Source: a virus
Lineage: Duplodnaviria > Heunggongvirae > Uroviricota > Caudoviricetes
Length of the DNA: 35,920 nucleotides
Virus record (IMG/VR): IMGVR_UViG_649989946_000004
Strand: one strand, 5' to 3'
The position numbers were made by a program, and so were the translations under genes. The notes under the pieces are model-generated. The model did not search any database, was not told the DNA's origin, and saw only the letters and a list, made by a program, of their open reading frames with translations. Below, piece by piece: positions 9,530-14,093 of this stretch; positions within the stretch are counted from its first letter, which is position 1, and every line of letters begins with the position of its first letter.

Positions 9530-9777
9530 CGGTTTTCATCGGTAACACACCATGTAATCTAGCAGTCAGCTTAGAAATAGGAGCGGCAGTTAAAGATTTT
9601 TCAGTTAGTAGAAAATTACTGTTATTGCAGGGATCTAATCACCGGAGAGTCGTTCCATTTGTCTTATGATTACCTGAAGTCCGTTAGTTCGTTGGTAATC
9701 ACCGTTTTTGTTAGAGAAGTAAGCATCGCTGACAAAATATTCTCAACGATGCCTGCTTTATTGCTACTACAAATTAA

Positions 9778-11278
9778 TTAAATTGCATCTGCAAACTCTG
9801 GGGTTTTTCGCTCAGGTATAATTGATGAGTTGCTGTTGTCACTTTTTTTATTTTCATGATTACGAATAGCCAATGACTCATTAAAGTCTTTTGCGACTGC
9901 TGTCTCAATAAATTCAATTTCTGAATCAGAGTGTTTTTTAACAGCTTCTTTGATCTCATCCAGAGTAACATAGAAAAACTCTTTTCTACGATTTACAAGA
10001 TTGACTCTCTTTTTATCGAAGACATCATGTAGTTTTTTTCTAATGATGGAGCGTCCTCCGAATAAATCATGGCATGTACATCAAAAATAAAAGGAACAGA
10101 TGCATCACCGAGCTCATTTACACGGTCTTGCGGATCAAGACGTCGTGTCATGCCTATTTTATAAACATTCTCCCCAAAAGAACCTATGTTCGAAATAATA
10201 TAAACATGACCTTGTTTGGTTTGTTGTGCCATGGATAATGCTCTTTGATGCTTTGATTCAGCCTGCGACAAACTCTGTTCTAGTTCGGCAATGCGATTTT
10301 CGAGGCGCTGCTTCATGTCACCAGTAACTTTTTCCATTTCCTTTCTTGCAGCTTCAATTGCTTTTTTATAACGGCGCTCTTCTGCCTCTGCGTCTTGCAT
10401 GGCCTTTTCTATTTCTCGTTGTGCACGCTCCTCCTCTCTCATTTGTGCCCTTATTTCTGCCTGTTCTTCTTTTTCTTTCTGTTTTTGCTCACGATATTCA
10501 TGGGTAAGCCACAATTCCTCAAGTTTTTTATTGAGGTATTTAGTGTTTATATATATATGATTTTGCTCGTTTAGTTTATTTATGGCCTCAAATGCCTTTG
10601 TGATGCGTTCTTCCATTTTAGTGATGTTTTTCCACGTGCAATTGCTAATTGCAGCATCACATTCATTATTAAATGCTCTAGTAGTTAGCCTGATATTTCT
10701 GTCTGTCATTTTTTTACCCTCTGCTCGAGAGCCTTCAACAGTCCATTGGGTTGTACAATATACTGCGCCAGAGTGGGTTTTATCCCGCAGCATTAATTTC
10801 TGTTCATCCCTGATGGATTTTATTTTGTTTTTAAATTGCTCTGAATCTTCAAAATTAAAATGAGGTTCGTAAAATCCTAGTTCGGCTAGCTCAACATCTT
10901 CTGAATAAATAGAAATTTGCCTTACTAGTTTATCATATATTTCTTTCTTCTCTTTATAAGTTCTTCTTAGCTCTTGGATTTGTTTATTGATACCATCCAT
11001 TTTTTCAATGGTGTTTGTTAGTTCATTATTGGCATTTTCTTTTACTTTTAGGGATTCTTCTTTTATTATGGAGCATTCTTGCTCTGTTTTCTCAATAAGC
11101 TTCTTACATTCTTCTTCTACATTAAAATAATCTGCAAAGCGAGATTTGTATTCTTCATTTTTTTGATTGCTATCACTTAATTCTAATTGTATTTTTTGAT
11201 GCGTTTGATTGCAGCTATATAAAGAACAAGAACAACCAATAAAAATATGATTGCAAGTAATAGAGGAGTTTGAGTCAT
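9778..11278 (-). CDS. Membrane-anchored coiled-coil protein with C-terminal T5orf172/GIY-YIG-like domain (DUF4041-like architecture); reading frame interrupted twice at homopolymer runs
   Basis: ATG at 11278 encodes a TM helix (MTQTPLLLAIIFLLVVLVLYIAAIKRIKK) that stops unless the T6 run 11192-11197 is read as 7; main 435-aa ORF (9993-11300) has a long coiled coil and GHVYIISNIGSFGENVYKIGMTRRLDPQDRVNELGDASVPFIFDVHAMI; the domain continues in the -1 frame (LHDVFDKKRVNLVNRRKEFFYVTLDEIKEAVKK...) to a stop at 9778 if the T7 run 10043-10049 is read as 8. Confidence 0.65.
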
Positions 11279-11587
11279 TCGTGCTATTCCTTACGGACAA
11301 TTTAAGACGTTTTGTATTAAATCCTGTTCAATGTGTATGCGGGTGATTGCTACCGCTTACAATCTTCATAATTATCAGTTAGATAGACTCGCTAGTAAAT
11401 AATTTCATTTTTTGCAATATTCTTATTGAATATTTCAATTTATGAAATGAACTCTTTATCCTTTCAAGGCGAAAGGTTTCTTCTTCGGAAATATTTGCTC
11501 TCGTGTGACGTATAAAGACCTTTGATTTTCAAAAATCAGTAGGGAATAATATAGTTACTGTCGGCCTGAACACCCGGTGGTGGGGTT

Positions 11588-11692
11588 GCGCTAAACGGGG
11601 ACGTTTATGCGCACACACAATCCAAACTCTCATCTCCATTCACAGATGCAGAAATGCACCTACGATTTTTTACATTCGGTGTTTTACTTCGA
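11588..11692. repeat. Direct repeat copy A (~105 bp, ~90% identical to copy B)
   Basis: GCGCTAAACGGGGACGTTTATGCGCACA...TTCACAGATGCAGAAATGCACCT... recurs at 13521-13625. Confidence 0.8.
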
Positions 11693-11737: not shown

Positions 11738-11827
11738 ATGGAAATCGTTATGTTTTGGCCTGAGGTAGTTGTAACTGTTGTAGCAGCTATGGCTGTGATC
11801 ATCATGGTGTCCATTTACTGGGGTTGA
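11738..11827 (+). CDS. Small hydrophobic peptide ORF (29 aa), speculative
   Basis: AAGGTGA SD then ATG; MEIVMFWPEVVVTVVAAMAVIIMVSIYWG is a single predicted TM segment; lies just after repeat copy A. Confidence 0.25.
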   Translation: MEIVMFWPEVVVTVVAAMAVIIMVSIYWG

Positions 11828-11913
11828 CGACATGATTTATCCGGCGCTATATTCTGTGCGTTGCCGCAAAATCGGCACACGGGATTGGCGTCCCGGGATA
11901 CTACTCAACGCAT

Positions 11914-11934
11914 ACCGCGTTAAGCGGTTTTTTT
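11914..11934 (+). terminator. Possible weak rho-independent terminator
   Basis: Short stem ACCGC-GTTAA-GCGGT followed by T7. Confidence 0.3.
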
Positions 11935-12090
11935 GTGCGCTAAGCACGGCTATGCCCAAATTATGGTGGGCTGTGTGAGGGCTTCTTCGGAAGCGCCGGG
12001 TTTGAGTAGCCGGTTACGCCAACCTTACACAGTTCACCACCAGTCGATTGGCGTCGTTGGTGGTGATGGTTAACCTGATGAGGTGATACT

Positions 12091-12699
12091 ATGACTACTC
12101 AATTAGCATTCCACAAAACGACGTTTACCCCGATTTGCCACAATAACAGAATTTGGCTTACTGCCACTGAAGTTGGTTTAGCACTGGAATATGCGGACGA
12201 TAAAGCAGTTCAGCGCATTTACTCTCGGCACTCAGATGAATTCACAGATATGATGACAAGGGTGGTCAAAGTGACCACCCCTCGTGGAATGCAGGAGTCT
12301 CGAGTATTTAGCCTTCGCGGAGCCCATTTGATCGCCATGTTTGCTCGTACTCCTGTGGCCAAAGAATTCCGCCGCTGGGTTCTGGATATTCTCGATCGAG
12401 AAGTTCAACAATCCCCAATCACAAAACAATTCACTGATAACGAACTTTGCACACTCGCCTGGTTATGGCGAGCAAGTGATACGATGTTAACCGCCTGCCA
12501 GAACGTTACGCCCCTTCTTCAGGTCGCAGAGCATCGCGAAGCAGGTAGATTCACTTCAATCGAACAAGAATATCCTCGGATACTCAACAGGGCGCGAGAA
12601 ATCCTTGCCAGAGAAACGGCGCATGTAAAATTCCAACCGTGGCAGGATGATAAGTGGAGTCGTGTGTTACCATATTTCCGTCAGAATCTGTTGCAATAA
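12091..12699 (+). CDS. BRO-N / antirepressor-like protein
   Basis: 202-aa ORF with GAGGTGA SD; N-terminal pattern (LAFHKTTF...IWLTATEVGLALEY ... RVFSLRGAHLIAMFARTPVAKEFRRWVLDIL) fits the Bro-N / P22-antirepressor N-terminal fold. Confidence 0.6.
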   Translation: MTTQLAFHKTTFTPICHNNRIWLTATEVGLALEYADDKAVQRIYSRHSDEFTDMMTRVVKVTTPRGMQESRVFSLRGAHLIAMFARTPVAKEFRRWVLDILDREVQQSPITKQFTDNELCTLAWLWRASDTMLTACQNVTPLLQVAEHREAGRFTSIEQEYPRILNRAREILARETAHVKFQPWQDDKWSRVLPYFRQNLLQ

Positions 12700-12933
12700 A
12701 GTCACTAGTTAGAAATACTGCCAGCATTCTGCGATGACGGAAGTGCTGGCATTTTTTTGGTAATGTGCGAGTCCATTTCATAAAATACGGGTACTGGAAC
12801 TGGACGATATAATCTAAAAGATACCATTATCAGTAGCATTAAAATCGCTATGTGCCGATACGGATATAAATTATATTGATTGTTCACATACCTTATTGGA
12901 TATTACTGAGGGGTGTTTATATAAGGTGTAACG

Positions 12934-13443
12934 ATGATGTGGAACTTTGACAGTGCCGACTTAAGTGCAATAGCAGCAGGCATTTCTGCGTTTGGCACAT
13001 TAGCCGCAGCGGGGTCGGCGCTTGCAAGTTGGTGCACGTCAAAAAAAGCGCTGCAGCTACAAAATAGAGTTTACCTTTATGAGTCTTTAAAGGCTTGCGC
13101 TGAGAGAGCCAATTCATCAGCTAAAGATAAGCGCGGATCTGAATGGAGCGTTAATGATGCAGCGGATATCATCAGGTGCCTAGTACGGGCGATGGAGCTC
13201 ATCAAGCAGGATAGCCAGCAGAAAGAAGGTAATCAGGCATTAATGTTGAAACAGTACTTTGTTAATCTGCTAATAATGGAACTGTACGAGGAAGTTCATA
13301 ACGGTGATGCGGCTGATTCTGTTTTTAAAAGTACGGAACCTACACAAGTACTTGATAACTTATGGAGCAAATGGCAGGAGGCTATAGCTTTTTTTGATAT
13401 TTGGAATTACCCAGTTGCGACTGAGGAAGACTTGGCAGACTAA
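12934..13443 (+). CDS. Hypothetical membrane protein (N-terminal TM helix, cytoplasmic alpha-helical domain)
   Basis: 169-aa ORF with AGGTG SD, preceded by a ~230-bp AT-rich promoter-like region; hydrophobic segment LSAIAAGISAFGTLAAAGSALASW; no family recognised. Confidence 0.6.
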   Translation: MMWNFDSADLSAIAAGISAFGTLAAAGSALASWCTSKKALQLQNRVYLYESLKACAERANSSAKDKRGSEWSVNDAADIIRCLVRAMELIKQDSQQKEGNQALMLKQYFVNLLIMELYEEVHNGDAADSVFKSTEPTQVLDNLWSKWQEAIAFFDIWNYPVATEEDLAD

Positions 13444-13520
13444 TTTTCAGCACATTTGATTTCCAATAATCAACCAGCCATAATCATGCCATTGGAGCTT
13501 GAACAACTCCGGTGACTTCT

Positions 13521-13625
13521 GCGCTAAACGGGGACGTTTATGCGCACATACAATCCAAACTCTCTTCTCCCTTCACAGATGCAGAGATGCACCTGCGATT
13601 TTTTGCATCCAGCGTTTGACCTCTG
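13521..13625. repeat. Direct repeat copy B, immediately upstream of ninB
   Basis: See copy A; ends ~12 bp before the ninB GTG start. Confidence 0.8.
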
Positions 13626-13637
13626 CGGAGGTGAAGC

Positions 13638-14093
13638 GTGAACCTCCCACAAGACGGCATCAAATTGCATCGTGGTAACTTCACCGCTATCGGCCAGCAG
13701 ATCCAGCCTTATCTGGAGGAAGGCAAATGCTTTCGCATGGTGCTTAAACCGTGGCGTGAGAAACGCAGTCTTTCCCAGAATGCACTCAGCCACATGTGGT
13801 ACAGCGAAATCAGTGAATACCTCATCAGCAGGGGTAAAACGTTCGCCACTCCAGCTTGGGTAAAAGATGCTCTCAAACACACATATCTCGGTTATGAAAC
13901 CAAAGACCTGGTTGATGTCGTAACCGGTGAGATCACCACTATCCAGTCGTTACGCCATACCTCCGATCTTGATACCGGAGAGATGTATATCTTCCTGTGT
14001 AAGGTTGAAGCCTGGGCGGTGAATATTGGCTGCCACCTGACTATTCCGCAGAGCTGCGAGTTCCAGCTGCTCCGCGACAAGCAGGAGGCGTAA
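13638..14093 (+). CDS. ninB: NinB-family recombination protein
   Basis: 151-aa ORF, GTG start with GGAGG SD; motif [21 protein letters not shown] matches the NinB RSLDQN region. Confidence 0.75.

What the first reader, a model, noticed from the sequence alone, without database searches (positions are those of the whole stretch)
12934..13443. Orphan 169-aa membrane protein with its own promoter-like region
ORF with AGGTG SD and ATG, preceded by ~230 bp of AT-rich non-coding DNA, encoding one N-terminal hydrophobic helix followed by a ~130-residue helical domain. No similarity to any phage protein I can recall. Small single-pass membrane proteins expressed from prophages (SieB- or Imm-like) are classic superinfection-exclusion factors, so this may act alone or with the adjacent antirepressor-like gene.
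Basis: inference. Interest (0 to 1): 0.55.

Follow-up and report, generated by a model that had tools for sequence, protein, structure and literature searches.

The report
Uncharacterised prophage moron, small membrane protein
A real, conserved but functionally unknown accessory gene of lambda-like prophages that has its own conserved promoter and probably encodes a small inner-membrane-anchored protein; its proposed role in excluding other phages is plausible but untested, and it is not tied to the neighbouring antirepressor gene.

Summary
The ORF at 12934-13443 is real. It has an AAGGTG ribosome-binding site and a 234-bp, 37% GC upstream gap. Related copies give dN/dS of about 0.1. It lies in the ren-to-ninB accessory region of a lambdoid E. 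coli prophage.

It is not an orphan. It matches PHROG 1779 (function unknown), occurs in 181 of 5426 complete E. coli genomes and two isolated phages, and belongs to a small family of 34 clusters.

There is no match to Pfam, NCBIfam, PADLOC or PDB sequences. Fold searches return only generic helical bundles.

New findings:
- A sigma-70-like promoter (ATTGnnn-N17-GATATTA) sits about 30 nt before the start codon in seven diverged lineages.
- A strong terminator closes the upstream operon, and terminators follow the gene in several lineages. This is the layout of a moron.
- The N-terminal helix is uncharged and rich in Ala and Ser. Its flanking charges predict N-out/C-in topology, and one family member carries three extra transmembrane helices.
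- The neighbouring antirepressor belongs to a separate isrK/C4-RNA module, and that adjacency is not conserved outside E. coli.

Function remains inferred. An exclusion or abortive-infection role is possible (about 0.3). SieB membership was tested and not met. Interest is modest.

The parts
12720..12758 (+). Intrinsic terminator of the upstream isrK/C4/antirepressor unit (GCCAGCA...TGCTGGC hairpin followed by a T7 run). It insulates orf169 from upstream transcription.
   Evidence: Sequence read. RNA fold gives -20.2 kcal/mol, z = -3.0, with 0 of 200 shuffles as stable. Coordinates.
12876..12904 (+). Sigma-70-like promoter: -35 TTGATT (12876-12881), 17-nt spacer, -10 GATATT (12899-12904). An A/T-rich AAATT tract lies just upstream. 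The predicted transcription start is about 12910.
   Evidence: ATTGnnn-N17-GATATTA is kept at the same distance from the ATG in 7 lineages whose proteins are only 50-76% identical and whose synonymous sites are saturated. The motif occurs once in the window, against 0.01 expected by chance. It scores 8 of 12 consensus positions by my reading, so the generic scan (threshold 9 of 12) did not list it. No transcript data are available.
12889..12917 (+). Imperfect inverted repeat flanking the -10 box. It reads ATACCCT...AGGGTAT in most lineages and ATACCTT...GGGGTGT here. Its role is unknown.
   Evidence: Seen. The consensus RNA fold is weak (-4.6 kcal/mol) with negligible covariation. Left unexplained.
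12923..12928 (+). Shine-Dalgarno sequence AAGGTG
   Evidence: It lies 5 nt before ATG 12934 and 8 nt before ATG 12937.
12934..13443 (+). orf169 coding sequence (169 aa, or 168 aa from ATG 12937), a member of PHROG 1779
12961..13032 (+). Codons 10-33: an uncharged Ala/Ser/Gly-rich helix, the predicted transmembrane segment. It carries one stripe of large hydrophobic residues (positions 20, 23, 27, 30). Small residues are conserved around it: S18, A19, A24, A26, A28 and A29, with S32 invariant.
   Evidence: Hydropathy and flank charges in 25 family members. Per-column conservation. P0041 carries three additional strongly hydrophobic helices in front of this segment.
13033..13440 (+). Codons 34-169: the predicted cytoplasmic all-alpha bundle, with conserved E50, L52, R58-A59-N60, W71, K106-x-Y-F and W147. 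It ends in an acidic tail, ATEEDLAD (13417-13440).
13580..13607 (+). First terminator-like hairpin plus T-run downstream of orf169, and the probable 3' end of its transcript. It belongs to the conserved ylcH/ybcN leader element.
   Evidence: In other lineages a lambda-tR2-like terminator follows the orf169 homologue directly.

Best explanation
orf169 is a genuine accessory gene of lambdoid (pro)phages, organised as an autonomous moron-type unit.

Shown:
- It is under purifying selection.
- It is present in only a minority of otherwise similar prophages.
- It has lower GC than its core neighbours.
- A promoter-like motif conserved across diverged lineages lies just upstream.
- A strong terminator precedes it, and in several lineages a terminator follows it directly.

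Inferred from sequence:
- The product is a small bitopic inner-membrane protein. About 10 N-terminal residues face the periplasm. One weakly hydrophobic Ala/Ser-zipper transmembrane helix follows. A helical bundle of about 135 residues with an acidic C-terminal tail sits in the cytoplasm.
- The small residues of the helix are more conserved than an anchor alone would need, so the helix probably self-associates or packs against another membrane protein.
- No catalytic motif or enzyme fold is detectable, so the cytoplasmic bundle most likely binds a partner.

Speculative:
- It is expressed from the repressed prophage and acts alone at the cytoplasmic face of the inner membrane in phage-phage conflict. 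It would either block productive genome entry or trigger membrane-level abortive infection.

Rough sub-confidences: real gene 0.95; own promoter 0.7; membrane anchor with N-out/C-in topology 0.75; exclusion or abortive-infection role 0.3.
For: Real gene:
- dN/dS is about 0.1 with saturated synonymous sites.
- The family has consistent length and conserved motifs.

Accessory status:
- The gene is in 181 of 5426 E. coli genomes. The flanking ybcN leader is in 2892.
- ORF GC is 44.5%, against 50.9% for ybcN. In other lineages it is 43-48% against flanks of 51-56%.

Promoter and insulation:
- ATTGnnn-N17-GATATTA is conserved in 7 lineages and occurs once in the window, against 0.01 expected.
- There is an upstream terminator and downstream terminators in L048, L051-L053 and L060.

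Membrane anchor:
- All 25 family members have an uncharged N-terminal stretch of about 22 residues, with Kyte-Doolittle scores of 1.5-2.5.
- The N-terminal flank is net negative or neutral. The C-terminal flank is net positive in 22 of the 25.
- P0041 adds three strong transmembrane helices, which keeps the same C-in topology.
- S32 is invariant and A29 is 96% conserved.

Stand-alone action:
- Upstream neighbours vary.
- An intact copy is retained in a decayed prophage remnant (L057). In O104:H4 it is retained although neighbouring genes are pseudogenes.

Precedent: moron-encoded inner-membrane proteins that exclude phages include HK97 gp15 (PMC3594210) and P22 SieA (PMC10883804).
Against: - No transcript, protein or phenotype data exist, and no literature mentions the protein.
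- The promoter matches only 8 of 12 consensus positions and is purely computational.
- In the window there is no terminator directly after the ORF.
- The transmembrane segment of this allele is the weakest in the family. Its approximate Hessa insertion energy is about +2.7 kcal/mol, and AlphaFold gives pLDDT below 50 for residues 1-33.
- There is no similarity to any known exclusion or defence protein.
- The gene always lies on the same strand as the early operons, usually between the replication genes and ninB. An early lytic function would fit equally well.
Confidence: 0.35

Rival explanations
1. It is an early lytic-cycle helper. The gene would be expressed mainly from N-antiterminated pR (or pL) transcripts during infection or induction. 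It would act on a host inner-membrane-associated target, for example a protease, a transporter, or a replication or division factor. The benefit would go to phage development or the lysis-lysogeny decision, not to defence of the lysogen.
For: - In all 13 diverse contexts the gene lies on the same strand as the early operon. It usually sits between the replication genes and ninB or DUF1367.
- In one lineage it lies in the pL operon just after N (L060).
- In L048 and L051-L053 it occupies the position of lambda ren, upstream of a tR2-like terminator.
- The gaps to the upstream gene are short (about 80-110 nt) outside E. coli.
Against: - A promoter-like motif is conserved although synonymous sites are saturated. 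An operon-internal gene would not need one.
- In the window a strong terminator lies between it and the upstream genes.
- Intact copies are retained in decayed prophages that can no longer grow lytically.
Confidence: 0.3
2. It is a lysogenic-conversion factor unrelated to phage defence. A prophage-expressed membrane protein would modulate a host envelope function such as transport, stress tolerance or colonisation, as lambda Lom and Bor do.
For: - The moron architecture described above.
- The gene is present in diverse commensal and pathogenic E. coli, including O104:H4.
- It is retained in prophage remnants.
Against: - No similarity to any known conversion factor.
- The bulk of the protein is predicted to be cytoplasmic rather than surface-exposed.
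- Nothing in the gene context points to a host pathway.
Confidence: 0.2
3. It is a soluble oligomeric protein. The Ala-rich N-terminal helix would be a coiled-coil or Ala-zipper oligomerisation element, not a membrane anchor.
For: - Large hydrophobic residues follow a 3-4-3 spacing (positions 20, 23, 27, 30) with Ala elsewhere.
- Hydrophobicity is borderline in this allele.
- AlphaFold draws one continuous helix, residues 11-63.
Against: - Almost no charged residue appears in about 22 consecutive positions across 25 diverged sequences.
- Trp/Asp lie on the N-terminal side and aromatic plus Lys/Arg residues on the C-terminal side, as at membrane interfaces.
- One member fuses three unambiguous transmembrane helices in front of this segment.
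Confidence: 0.15
4. It works as a two-gene system with the adjacent Bro-N/P22_AR_C antirepressor-like gene.
For: In every E. coli locus examined where an upstream match was detected, orf169 sits about 235 nt downstream of a gene ending in a P22_AR_C domain.
Against: - The antirepressor gene is preceded by isrK and C4 antisense-RNA elements (Rfam 58.7 and 74.8 bits). This is the arrangement of the IsrK-orf45-AnrP unit (PMC4825925).
- A strong terminator ends that unit.
- In other genera the upstream neighbour is DUF551 or another unrelated, unannotated gene.
- In O104:H4 the P22_AR_C gene is a pseudogene while orf169 is intact.
Confidence: 0.05

Closest known systems
HK97 gp15 moron (inner-membrane superinfection-exclusion protein; Cumby et al. 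2012, reviewed in PMC3594210)
   Same: - A small protein encoded by an add-on unit of a lambdoid phage.
- Has its own promoter and a GC content different from its neighbours.
- Inserted in the inner membrane and acts alone.
   Different: - No sequence relationship; gp15 is YebO-like (PMC3594210).
- gp15 sits in the tail operon, whereas orf169 sits in the early region.
- Expression from the prophage and exclusion are shown for gp15 and only inferred here.
P22 SieA and lambda/P22 SieB exclusion proteins
   Same: - Prophage-encoded proteins of similar size (about 160-190 aa) from lambdoid phages, and membrane-associated.
- One orf169 family member (P0048) lies just downstream of N, which from memory is where sieB is described; the lambda record read here places its GeneMark-predicted SieB ORF next to N on the opposite strand.
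   Different: - SieA has three predicted transmembrane helices (PMC10883804); orf169 has one weak one.
- No Pfam SieB hit, and hhalign probability against lambda SieB is 0.2%.
- In most lineages orf169 lies in the pR arm, before ninB.
SAR (signal-anchor-release) domains of phage endolysins, pinholins and T4 RI
   Same: An N-terminal transmembrane segment dominated by Gly, Ala, Ser and Thr: 74% here and about 60% across the family. Such segments are only marginally stable in the membrane.
   Different: - From my own knowledge, SAR proteins have a positively charged N-terminus, N-in/C-out topology, a periplasmic functional domain, and sit in lysis cassettes.
- orf169 has an acidic N-flank and a basic C-flank, which predicts N-out/C-in.
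- It lies in the early region.
Lambda ren (positional analogue)
   Same: The last small gene of the replication block before a tR2-type terminator and ninB. Ren is also an exclusion-related accessory gene.
   Different: - The window's prophage already has a ren gene directly after P.
- No sequence similarity.
- Ren has no hydrophobic segment (own knowledge).

Membership tests
PHROG 1779 (phage protein family of unknown function) | Full-length match to the family profile | tested here: met
   E = 1.7e-102, residues 1-169 against profile positions 1-169. All 25 diverse family members match only this PHROG.
Moron (Juhala/Hendrix definition, as summarised in PMC3594210) | Own promoter | tested here: met
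   A -35/-10-like motif with a fixed 17-nt spacer is conserved in 7 diverged lineages. It occurs once in the window, against 0.01 expected. This is computational only; no transcription start data exist.
Moron (Juhala/Hendrix definition, as summarised in PMC3594210) | Own terminator | tested here: inconclusive
   In the window the first terminator-like site (13580-13607) lies 137 nt downstream and belongs to the ybcN leader element. In L048, L051-L053 and L060 a strong hairpin plus T-run follows the stop codon directly.
Moron (Juhala/Hendrix definition, as summarised in PMC3594210) | GC content differs from surrounding genes; present or absent among related phages | tested here: met
   GC is 44.5% (GC3 42.9%) against 50.9% (GC3 61.2%) for ybcN. 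In other lineages it is 43-48% against 51-56%. The gene is in 181 genomes; the adjacent ybcN leader is in 2892.
Moron (Juhala/Hendrix definition, as summarised in PMC3594210) | Expressed from the repressed prophage | not testable with these tools
   Needs RNA-seq, 5'-RACE or a reporter fusion in a lysogen.
SieB superinfection-exclusion family | Sequence or profile similarity to SieB | tested here: not met
   No Pfam hit at E <= 1 for orf169 or at E <= 0.1 for 25 members. hhalign of the family profile against lambda SieB gives probability 0.2%.
SieB superinfection-exclusion family | Aborts lytic development of superinfecting phage | not testable with these tools
   Needs a phage-challenge experiment.
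Inner-membrane injection blockers (SieA, T4 Imm, HK97 gp15) | Homology to one of these proteins | tested here: not met
   No Pfam, NCBIfam, PHROG (other than 1779) or PADLOC match.
Inner-membrane injection blockers (SieA, T4 Imm, HK97 gp15) | Integral inner-membrane protein | tested here: inconclusive
   One weakly hydrophobic N-terminal segment. Flank charges, aromatic borders and the P0041 fusion support insertion. This allele is borderline.
SAR-domain proteins | Gly/Ala/Ser/Thr-rich N-terminal transmembrane segment | tested here: met
   74% G/A/S/T in the best 19-mer and about 60% across the family.
SAR-domain proteins | Basic N-terminus, N-in/C-out topology, periplasmic functional domain, lysis-cassette location | tested here: not met
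   The N-flank is net -1 to -2 in most members and neutral in a few; the C-flank is net positive in 22 of 25. The gene lies in the early region, not the lysis cassette.
Known anti-phage defence systems (PADLOC-DB v2) | Match to any defence-protein model | tested here: not met
   No hit for orf169 at E <= 1. Among 25 members there are only scattered single hits at E > 1e-3.
IsrK-orf45-AnrP-type antirepressor module (as a component) | Conserved linkage and co-transcription with the antirepressor gene | tested here: not met
   A terminator lies between the two genes. Linkage holds only in E. coli and is absent in other lineages.

The most novel reading that the evidence does not exclude
PHROG 1779 proteins are single-polypeptide membrane switches. 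The marginally hydrophobic Ala/Ser-zipper helix would sit at the edge of membrane stability, much like a SAR domain but with inverted topology. It would assemble into a tight oligomeric bundle or pore only when the cytoplasmic helical bundle, or its conserved acidic tail, senses a cue from an infecting phage. The result would be a one-gene abortive-infection or viroporin-like device carried as a moron by lambdoid prophages.
Probability: 0.1. Interest if true: 0.6.

Novelty: new member of a known kind. Interest (0 to 1): 0.3.

Why it matters
If the protein does exclude or abort other phages, it would add a new single-gene family, unrelated in sequence to known ones, to the set of moron-encoded inner-membrane defence factors. 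That family is present in about 3% of complete E. coli genomes, including the O104:H4 outbreak lineage.

It would also give a simple model for how a marginally hydrophobic, small-residue transmembrane helix is used functionally.

Even without a known function, the analysis has practical value. It defines the gene as a clean, portable unit (promoter, ribosome-binding site, coding sequence) that can be tested directly. It also corrects the idea that the gene belongs with the antirepressor.

As it stands, this is one of many uncharacterised prophage accessory genes, so the present interest is modest.

Tried and rejected
- **Family searches.** Pfam, NCBIfam and PADLOC gave nothing for orf169. For 25 diverse members they gave only scattered single hits at E > 1e-3.
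- **PHROGs.** Only family 1779, function unknown.
- **Solved structures by sequence.** A profile search of PDB sequences gave nothing better than E = 3.8.
- **Fold searches.**
  - Foldseek against BFVD gave a best E of 0.11.
  - These are generic helical matches and say nothing about function.
  - The afdb50 library was not available.
- **SieB.** hhalign against lambda SieB was negative.
- **Inverted repeat around the -10 box.** I considered whether it is an RNA structure. The RNAalifold consensus is weak, with almost no covariation, so I rejected it as an established RNA element and left it unexplained.
- **Regulator sites.** Read by eye, the promoter region does not resemble a sigma-54 promoter, a CII box (TTGC-N6-TTGC), a LexA box or a DnaA box. 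This was not a formal test.
- **Lipoprotein or Sec signal.** The N-terminal region is acidic and there is no lipobox. The Cys at position 34 is not conserved. Rejected.
- **Downstream structured element.** It is not AgvB, AsxR, isrJ or any other Rfam family at E <= 5.
- **Literature.** Searches for protein accessions, locus tags and phage names found nothing on this protein.
- **Genome-contig scan.** The scan of genome contigs with the diverse alignment A2 failed for lack of a conserved block. The scan with the closer alignment A1 returned a single locus.

Full report
**The observation**

The ORF at 12934-13443 (+) is present as described. AAGGTG lies at 12923-12928, followed by two in-frame ATGs at 12934 and 12937. 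Several E. coli variants carry ATT or ATA as codon 1, so 12937 is probably the universal start.

The upstream gap (12700-12933) is 234 bp and 36.8% GC, against 49.3% for the window.

The gene is real. Homologues 47-76% identical keep the same length and motifs. Between diverged copies synonymous sites are saturated while pN is 0.14-0.33. Where it can be measured, dN/dS is about 0.1.

**Genomic setting**

The window is a lambdoid E. coli prophage. This region is 97.8% identical over 14.8 kb to phage PhiR26_1. The gene order is:
- O, P, ren
- PD-lambda-1 on the minus strand
- a structured non-coding element
- an antirepressor-like gene (Bro-N plus P22_AR_C domains)
- orf169
- the same structured element again
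- ybcN (a weak, sub-threshold NinB-family match), ybcO, rusA, ylcG, Q, and a porin gene

Rfam places isrK (11862-11934, 58.7 bits) and a C4 antisense RNA (11959-12044, 74.8 bits) directly upstream of the antirepressor gene. A 10-of-12 promoter match lies at 11824-11853. This is the layout of the Gifsy-1 IsrK-orf45-AnrP unit (PMC4825925). A strong intrinsic terminator at 12720-12758 closes that unit (-20.2 kcal/mol, z = -3.0). The antirepressor is therefore its own sRNA-controlled transcription unit, and orf169 lies outside it.

**Distribution and family**

- orf169 is annotated only as 'hypothetical protein'.
- It occurs in 181 of 5426 complete E. coli genomes, including O104:H4 2011C-3493 (O3K_RS27165).
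- It occurs in two isolated phages.
- It gives a full-length match to PHROG 1779, function unknown.
- The 5.8-billion-protein search found 14 relatives.
- A profile search of 1.84 billion representatives found 34 clusters.
- All 25 diverse members tested match PHROG 1779 and nothing else consistently.

**Context of relatives**

Every relative with readable context lies in a lambdoid (pro)phage early region, on the same strand as the early operon. Most often it is the last gene before ninB or DUF1367. One lineage has it in the pL arm after N (L060). Another keeps it intact in a decayed prophage remnant (L057).

The upstream neighbour changes between lineages. It is P22_AR_C-type antirepressor genes in E. 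coli, and DUF551 or other unannotated genes elsewhere. In O104:H4 the P22_AR_C gene is a pseudogene while orf169 is intact. This argues against a two-gene system.

**Regulatory signals**

Aligning the upstream regions of seven lineages shows an invariant TTG, a 17-nt spacer and an invariant GATATTA about 30 nt before the start codon. An A/T-rich tract lies upstream of the TTG. These lineages have protein identities down to 50%.

In the window the motif is TTGATT (12876-12881) and GATATT (12899-12904). The extended motif occurs once in the window, against 0.01 expected. Synonymous sites are saturated between these lineages, so this conservation implies constraint. A sigma-70 promoter is the simplest reading.

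An imperfect inverted repeat brackets the -10 box. Its RNA fold is weak and shows no covariation, so it stays unexplained.

Downstream, several lineages have a lambda-tR2-like terminator directly after the stop codon. In the window the first terminator-like site is at 13580-13607.

Taken together, these features fit the published definition of a moron (PMC3594210):
- lower GC than core neighbours
- presence in only some related prophages (181 genomes, against 2892 that carry the adjacent ybcN leader)
- a conserved promoter-like motif and flanking terminators

Expression from the prophage remains untested.

**The protein**

The N-terminal helix (residues about 10-33):
- It is uncharged in almost all of the 25 members.
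- Its Kyte-Doolittle 19-mer scores are 1.5-2.5, and about 60% of its residues are Gly, Ala, Ser or Thr.
- Asp/Trp lie on the N-terminal side, and aromatic plus Lys/Arg residues on the C-terminal side.
- The flank charges are negative or neutral before the helix. After it they are positive in 22 of the 25 members. This predicts an N-out/C-in orientation.
- One member (P0041, 288 aa) adds three clearly hydrophobic helices in front. That keeps the same orientation and supports membrane insertion.
- The window's allele is the least hydrophobic (1.59), so insertion is probable rather than certain.

The conservation pattern of this helix is unusual for a simple anchor. S32 is invariant, A29 is 96% conserved and A26 is 88% conserved. 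Large hydrophobic residues form a single stripe at positions 20, 23, 27 and 30. This suggests tight helix-helix packing, either with itself or with another membrane protein.

Residues 34-169 are modelled as an all-alpha bundle (pLDDT 80.6, pTM 0.74). A conserved acidic tail, (T/S)D-x-DL-x-D, is present in most members. Fold searches return only generic helical repeats. No conserved catalytic-looking residues are seen. A binding or sensing role is the most economical inference.

**Comparison with known systems**

The closest functional analogues are moron-encoded inner-membrane exclusion proteins: HK97 gp15 (PMC3594210), and P22 SieA and SieB (PMC10883804). Family membership fails wherever it could be tested. 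There is no Pfam or PADLOC hit, and hhalign against lambda SieB gives probability 0.2%.

The transmembrane composition resembles SAR domains, but the predicted topology and the genomic location are the opposite.

The protein is therefore best filed as a member of an uncharacterised family (PHROG 1779) within the known kind 'prophage moron encoding a small membrane protein'.

**Verdict**

The link to the antirepressor is not supported. Superinfection exclusion remains a reasonable but untested guess (about 0.3), with an early-lytic helper role almost as likely. Interest is modest (0.3).

Noticed in passing
window 11862-11934 and 11959-12044 (+), with promoter-like site at 11824-11853: Rfam isrK (58.7 bits) and C4 antisense RNA (74.8 bits) lie directly upstream of the antirepressor-like gene at 12091-12699. 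A sub-threshold c4-a1b1 target match lies at 11847-11899. A 46-aa ORF (11933-12073) occupies the orf45 position. This is an IsrK-orf45-AnrP or P1 immI-like sRNA-controlled antirepressor module in an E. coli lambdoid prophage.
   Followed up: partly
window 13456-13640 and 11522-11690 (+): There are two copies of a conserved structured element. The 104-nt cores (11587-11690 and 13520-13623) are 89% identical. Each copy has a promoter-like TTGATT-N17-(C/A)ATAAT, a hairpin with conserved loop CCUGAACA and differing stems, a second hairpin with loop GGGGAC and covarying stems, a CA/CU-rich linker, and a terminator-like hairpin. The two copies bracket the antirepressor + orf169 block. The downstream copy overlaps the short annotated ORF (ylcH-like) whose stop codon overlaps the ybcN start. 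It is present in 2892 of 5426 E. coli genomes, including K-12. It has no Rfam match. It could be an sRNA or a leader/attenuator for ybcN.
   Followed up: partly
window 9775-11300 (-): The PD-lambda-1 defence gene matches the PADLOC model at E = 8e-166. PhiR26_1 has a 500-aa intact version. In the window the gene is broken by two frameshifts at A-runs. One follows the N-terminal transmembrane segment (after ...IKRIKK). The other lies in the C-terminal nuclease domain (after ...APSLEK). The window-to-PhiR26_1 alignment has 59 gaps in 14.8 kb, so these may be homopolymer sequencing errors rather than real pseudogenisation.
   Followed up: partly
window 11738-11827 (+): A short ORF (29 aa, MEIVMFWPEVVVTVVAAMAVIIMVSIYWG) is almost entirely hydrophobic and is preceded by AAGGTG only 2 nt upstream. 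It lies between the first structured element and the isrK promoter. PhiR26_1 does not annotate it. It may be a small membrane peptide or a chance ORF.
   Followed up: no
window 12705-12887 (-): A 60-aa minus-strand ORF with a GTG start and a hydrophobic stretch lies inside the AT-rich gap upstream of orf169. The gap is only 80-110 nt in other lineages, so this ORF is not conserved and is probably spurious.
   Followed up: partly
L048, L051, L052, L053 (about 25-70 nt after the orf169 homologue); lambda L069 1095-1130: In these lineages the orf169 homologue is followed directly by a hairpin, aggcctctccggaggcc plus a T-run. This closely resembles lambda tR2 (aggcctgctggtaatcgcaggcc plus a T-run). 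It places the gene in the same position relative to tR2 as lambda ren.
   Followed up: partly
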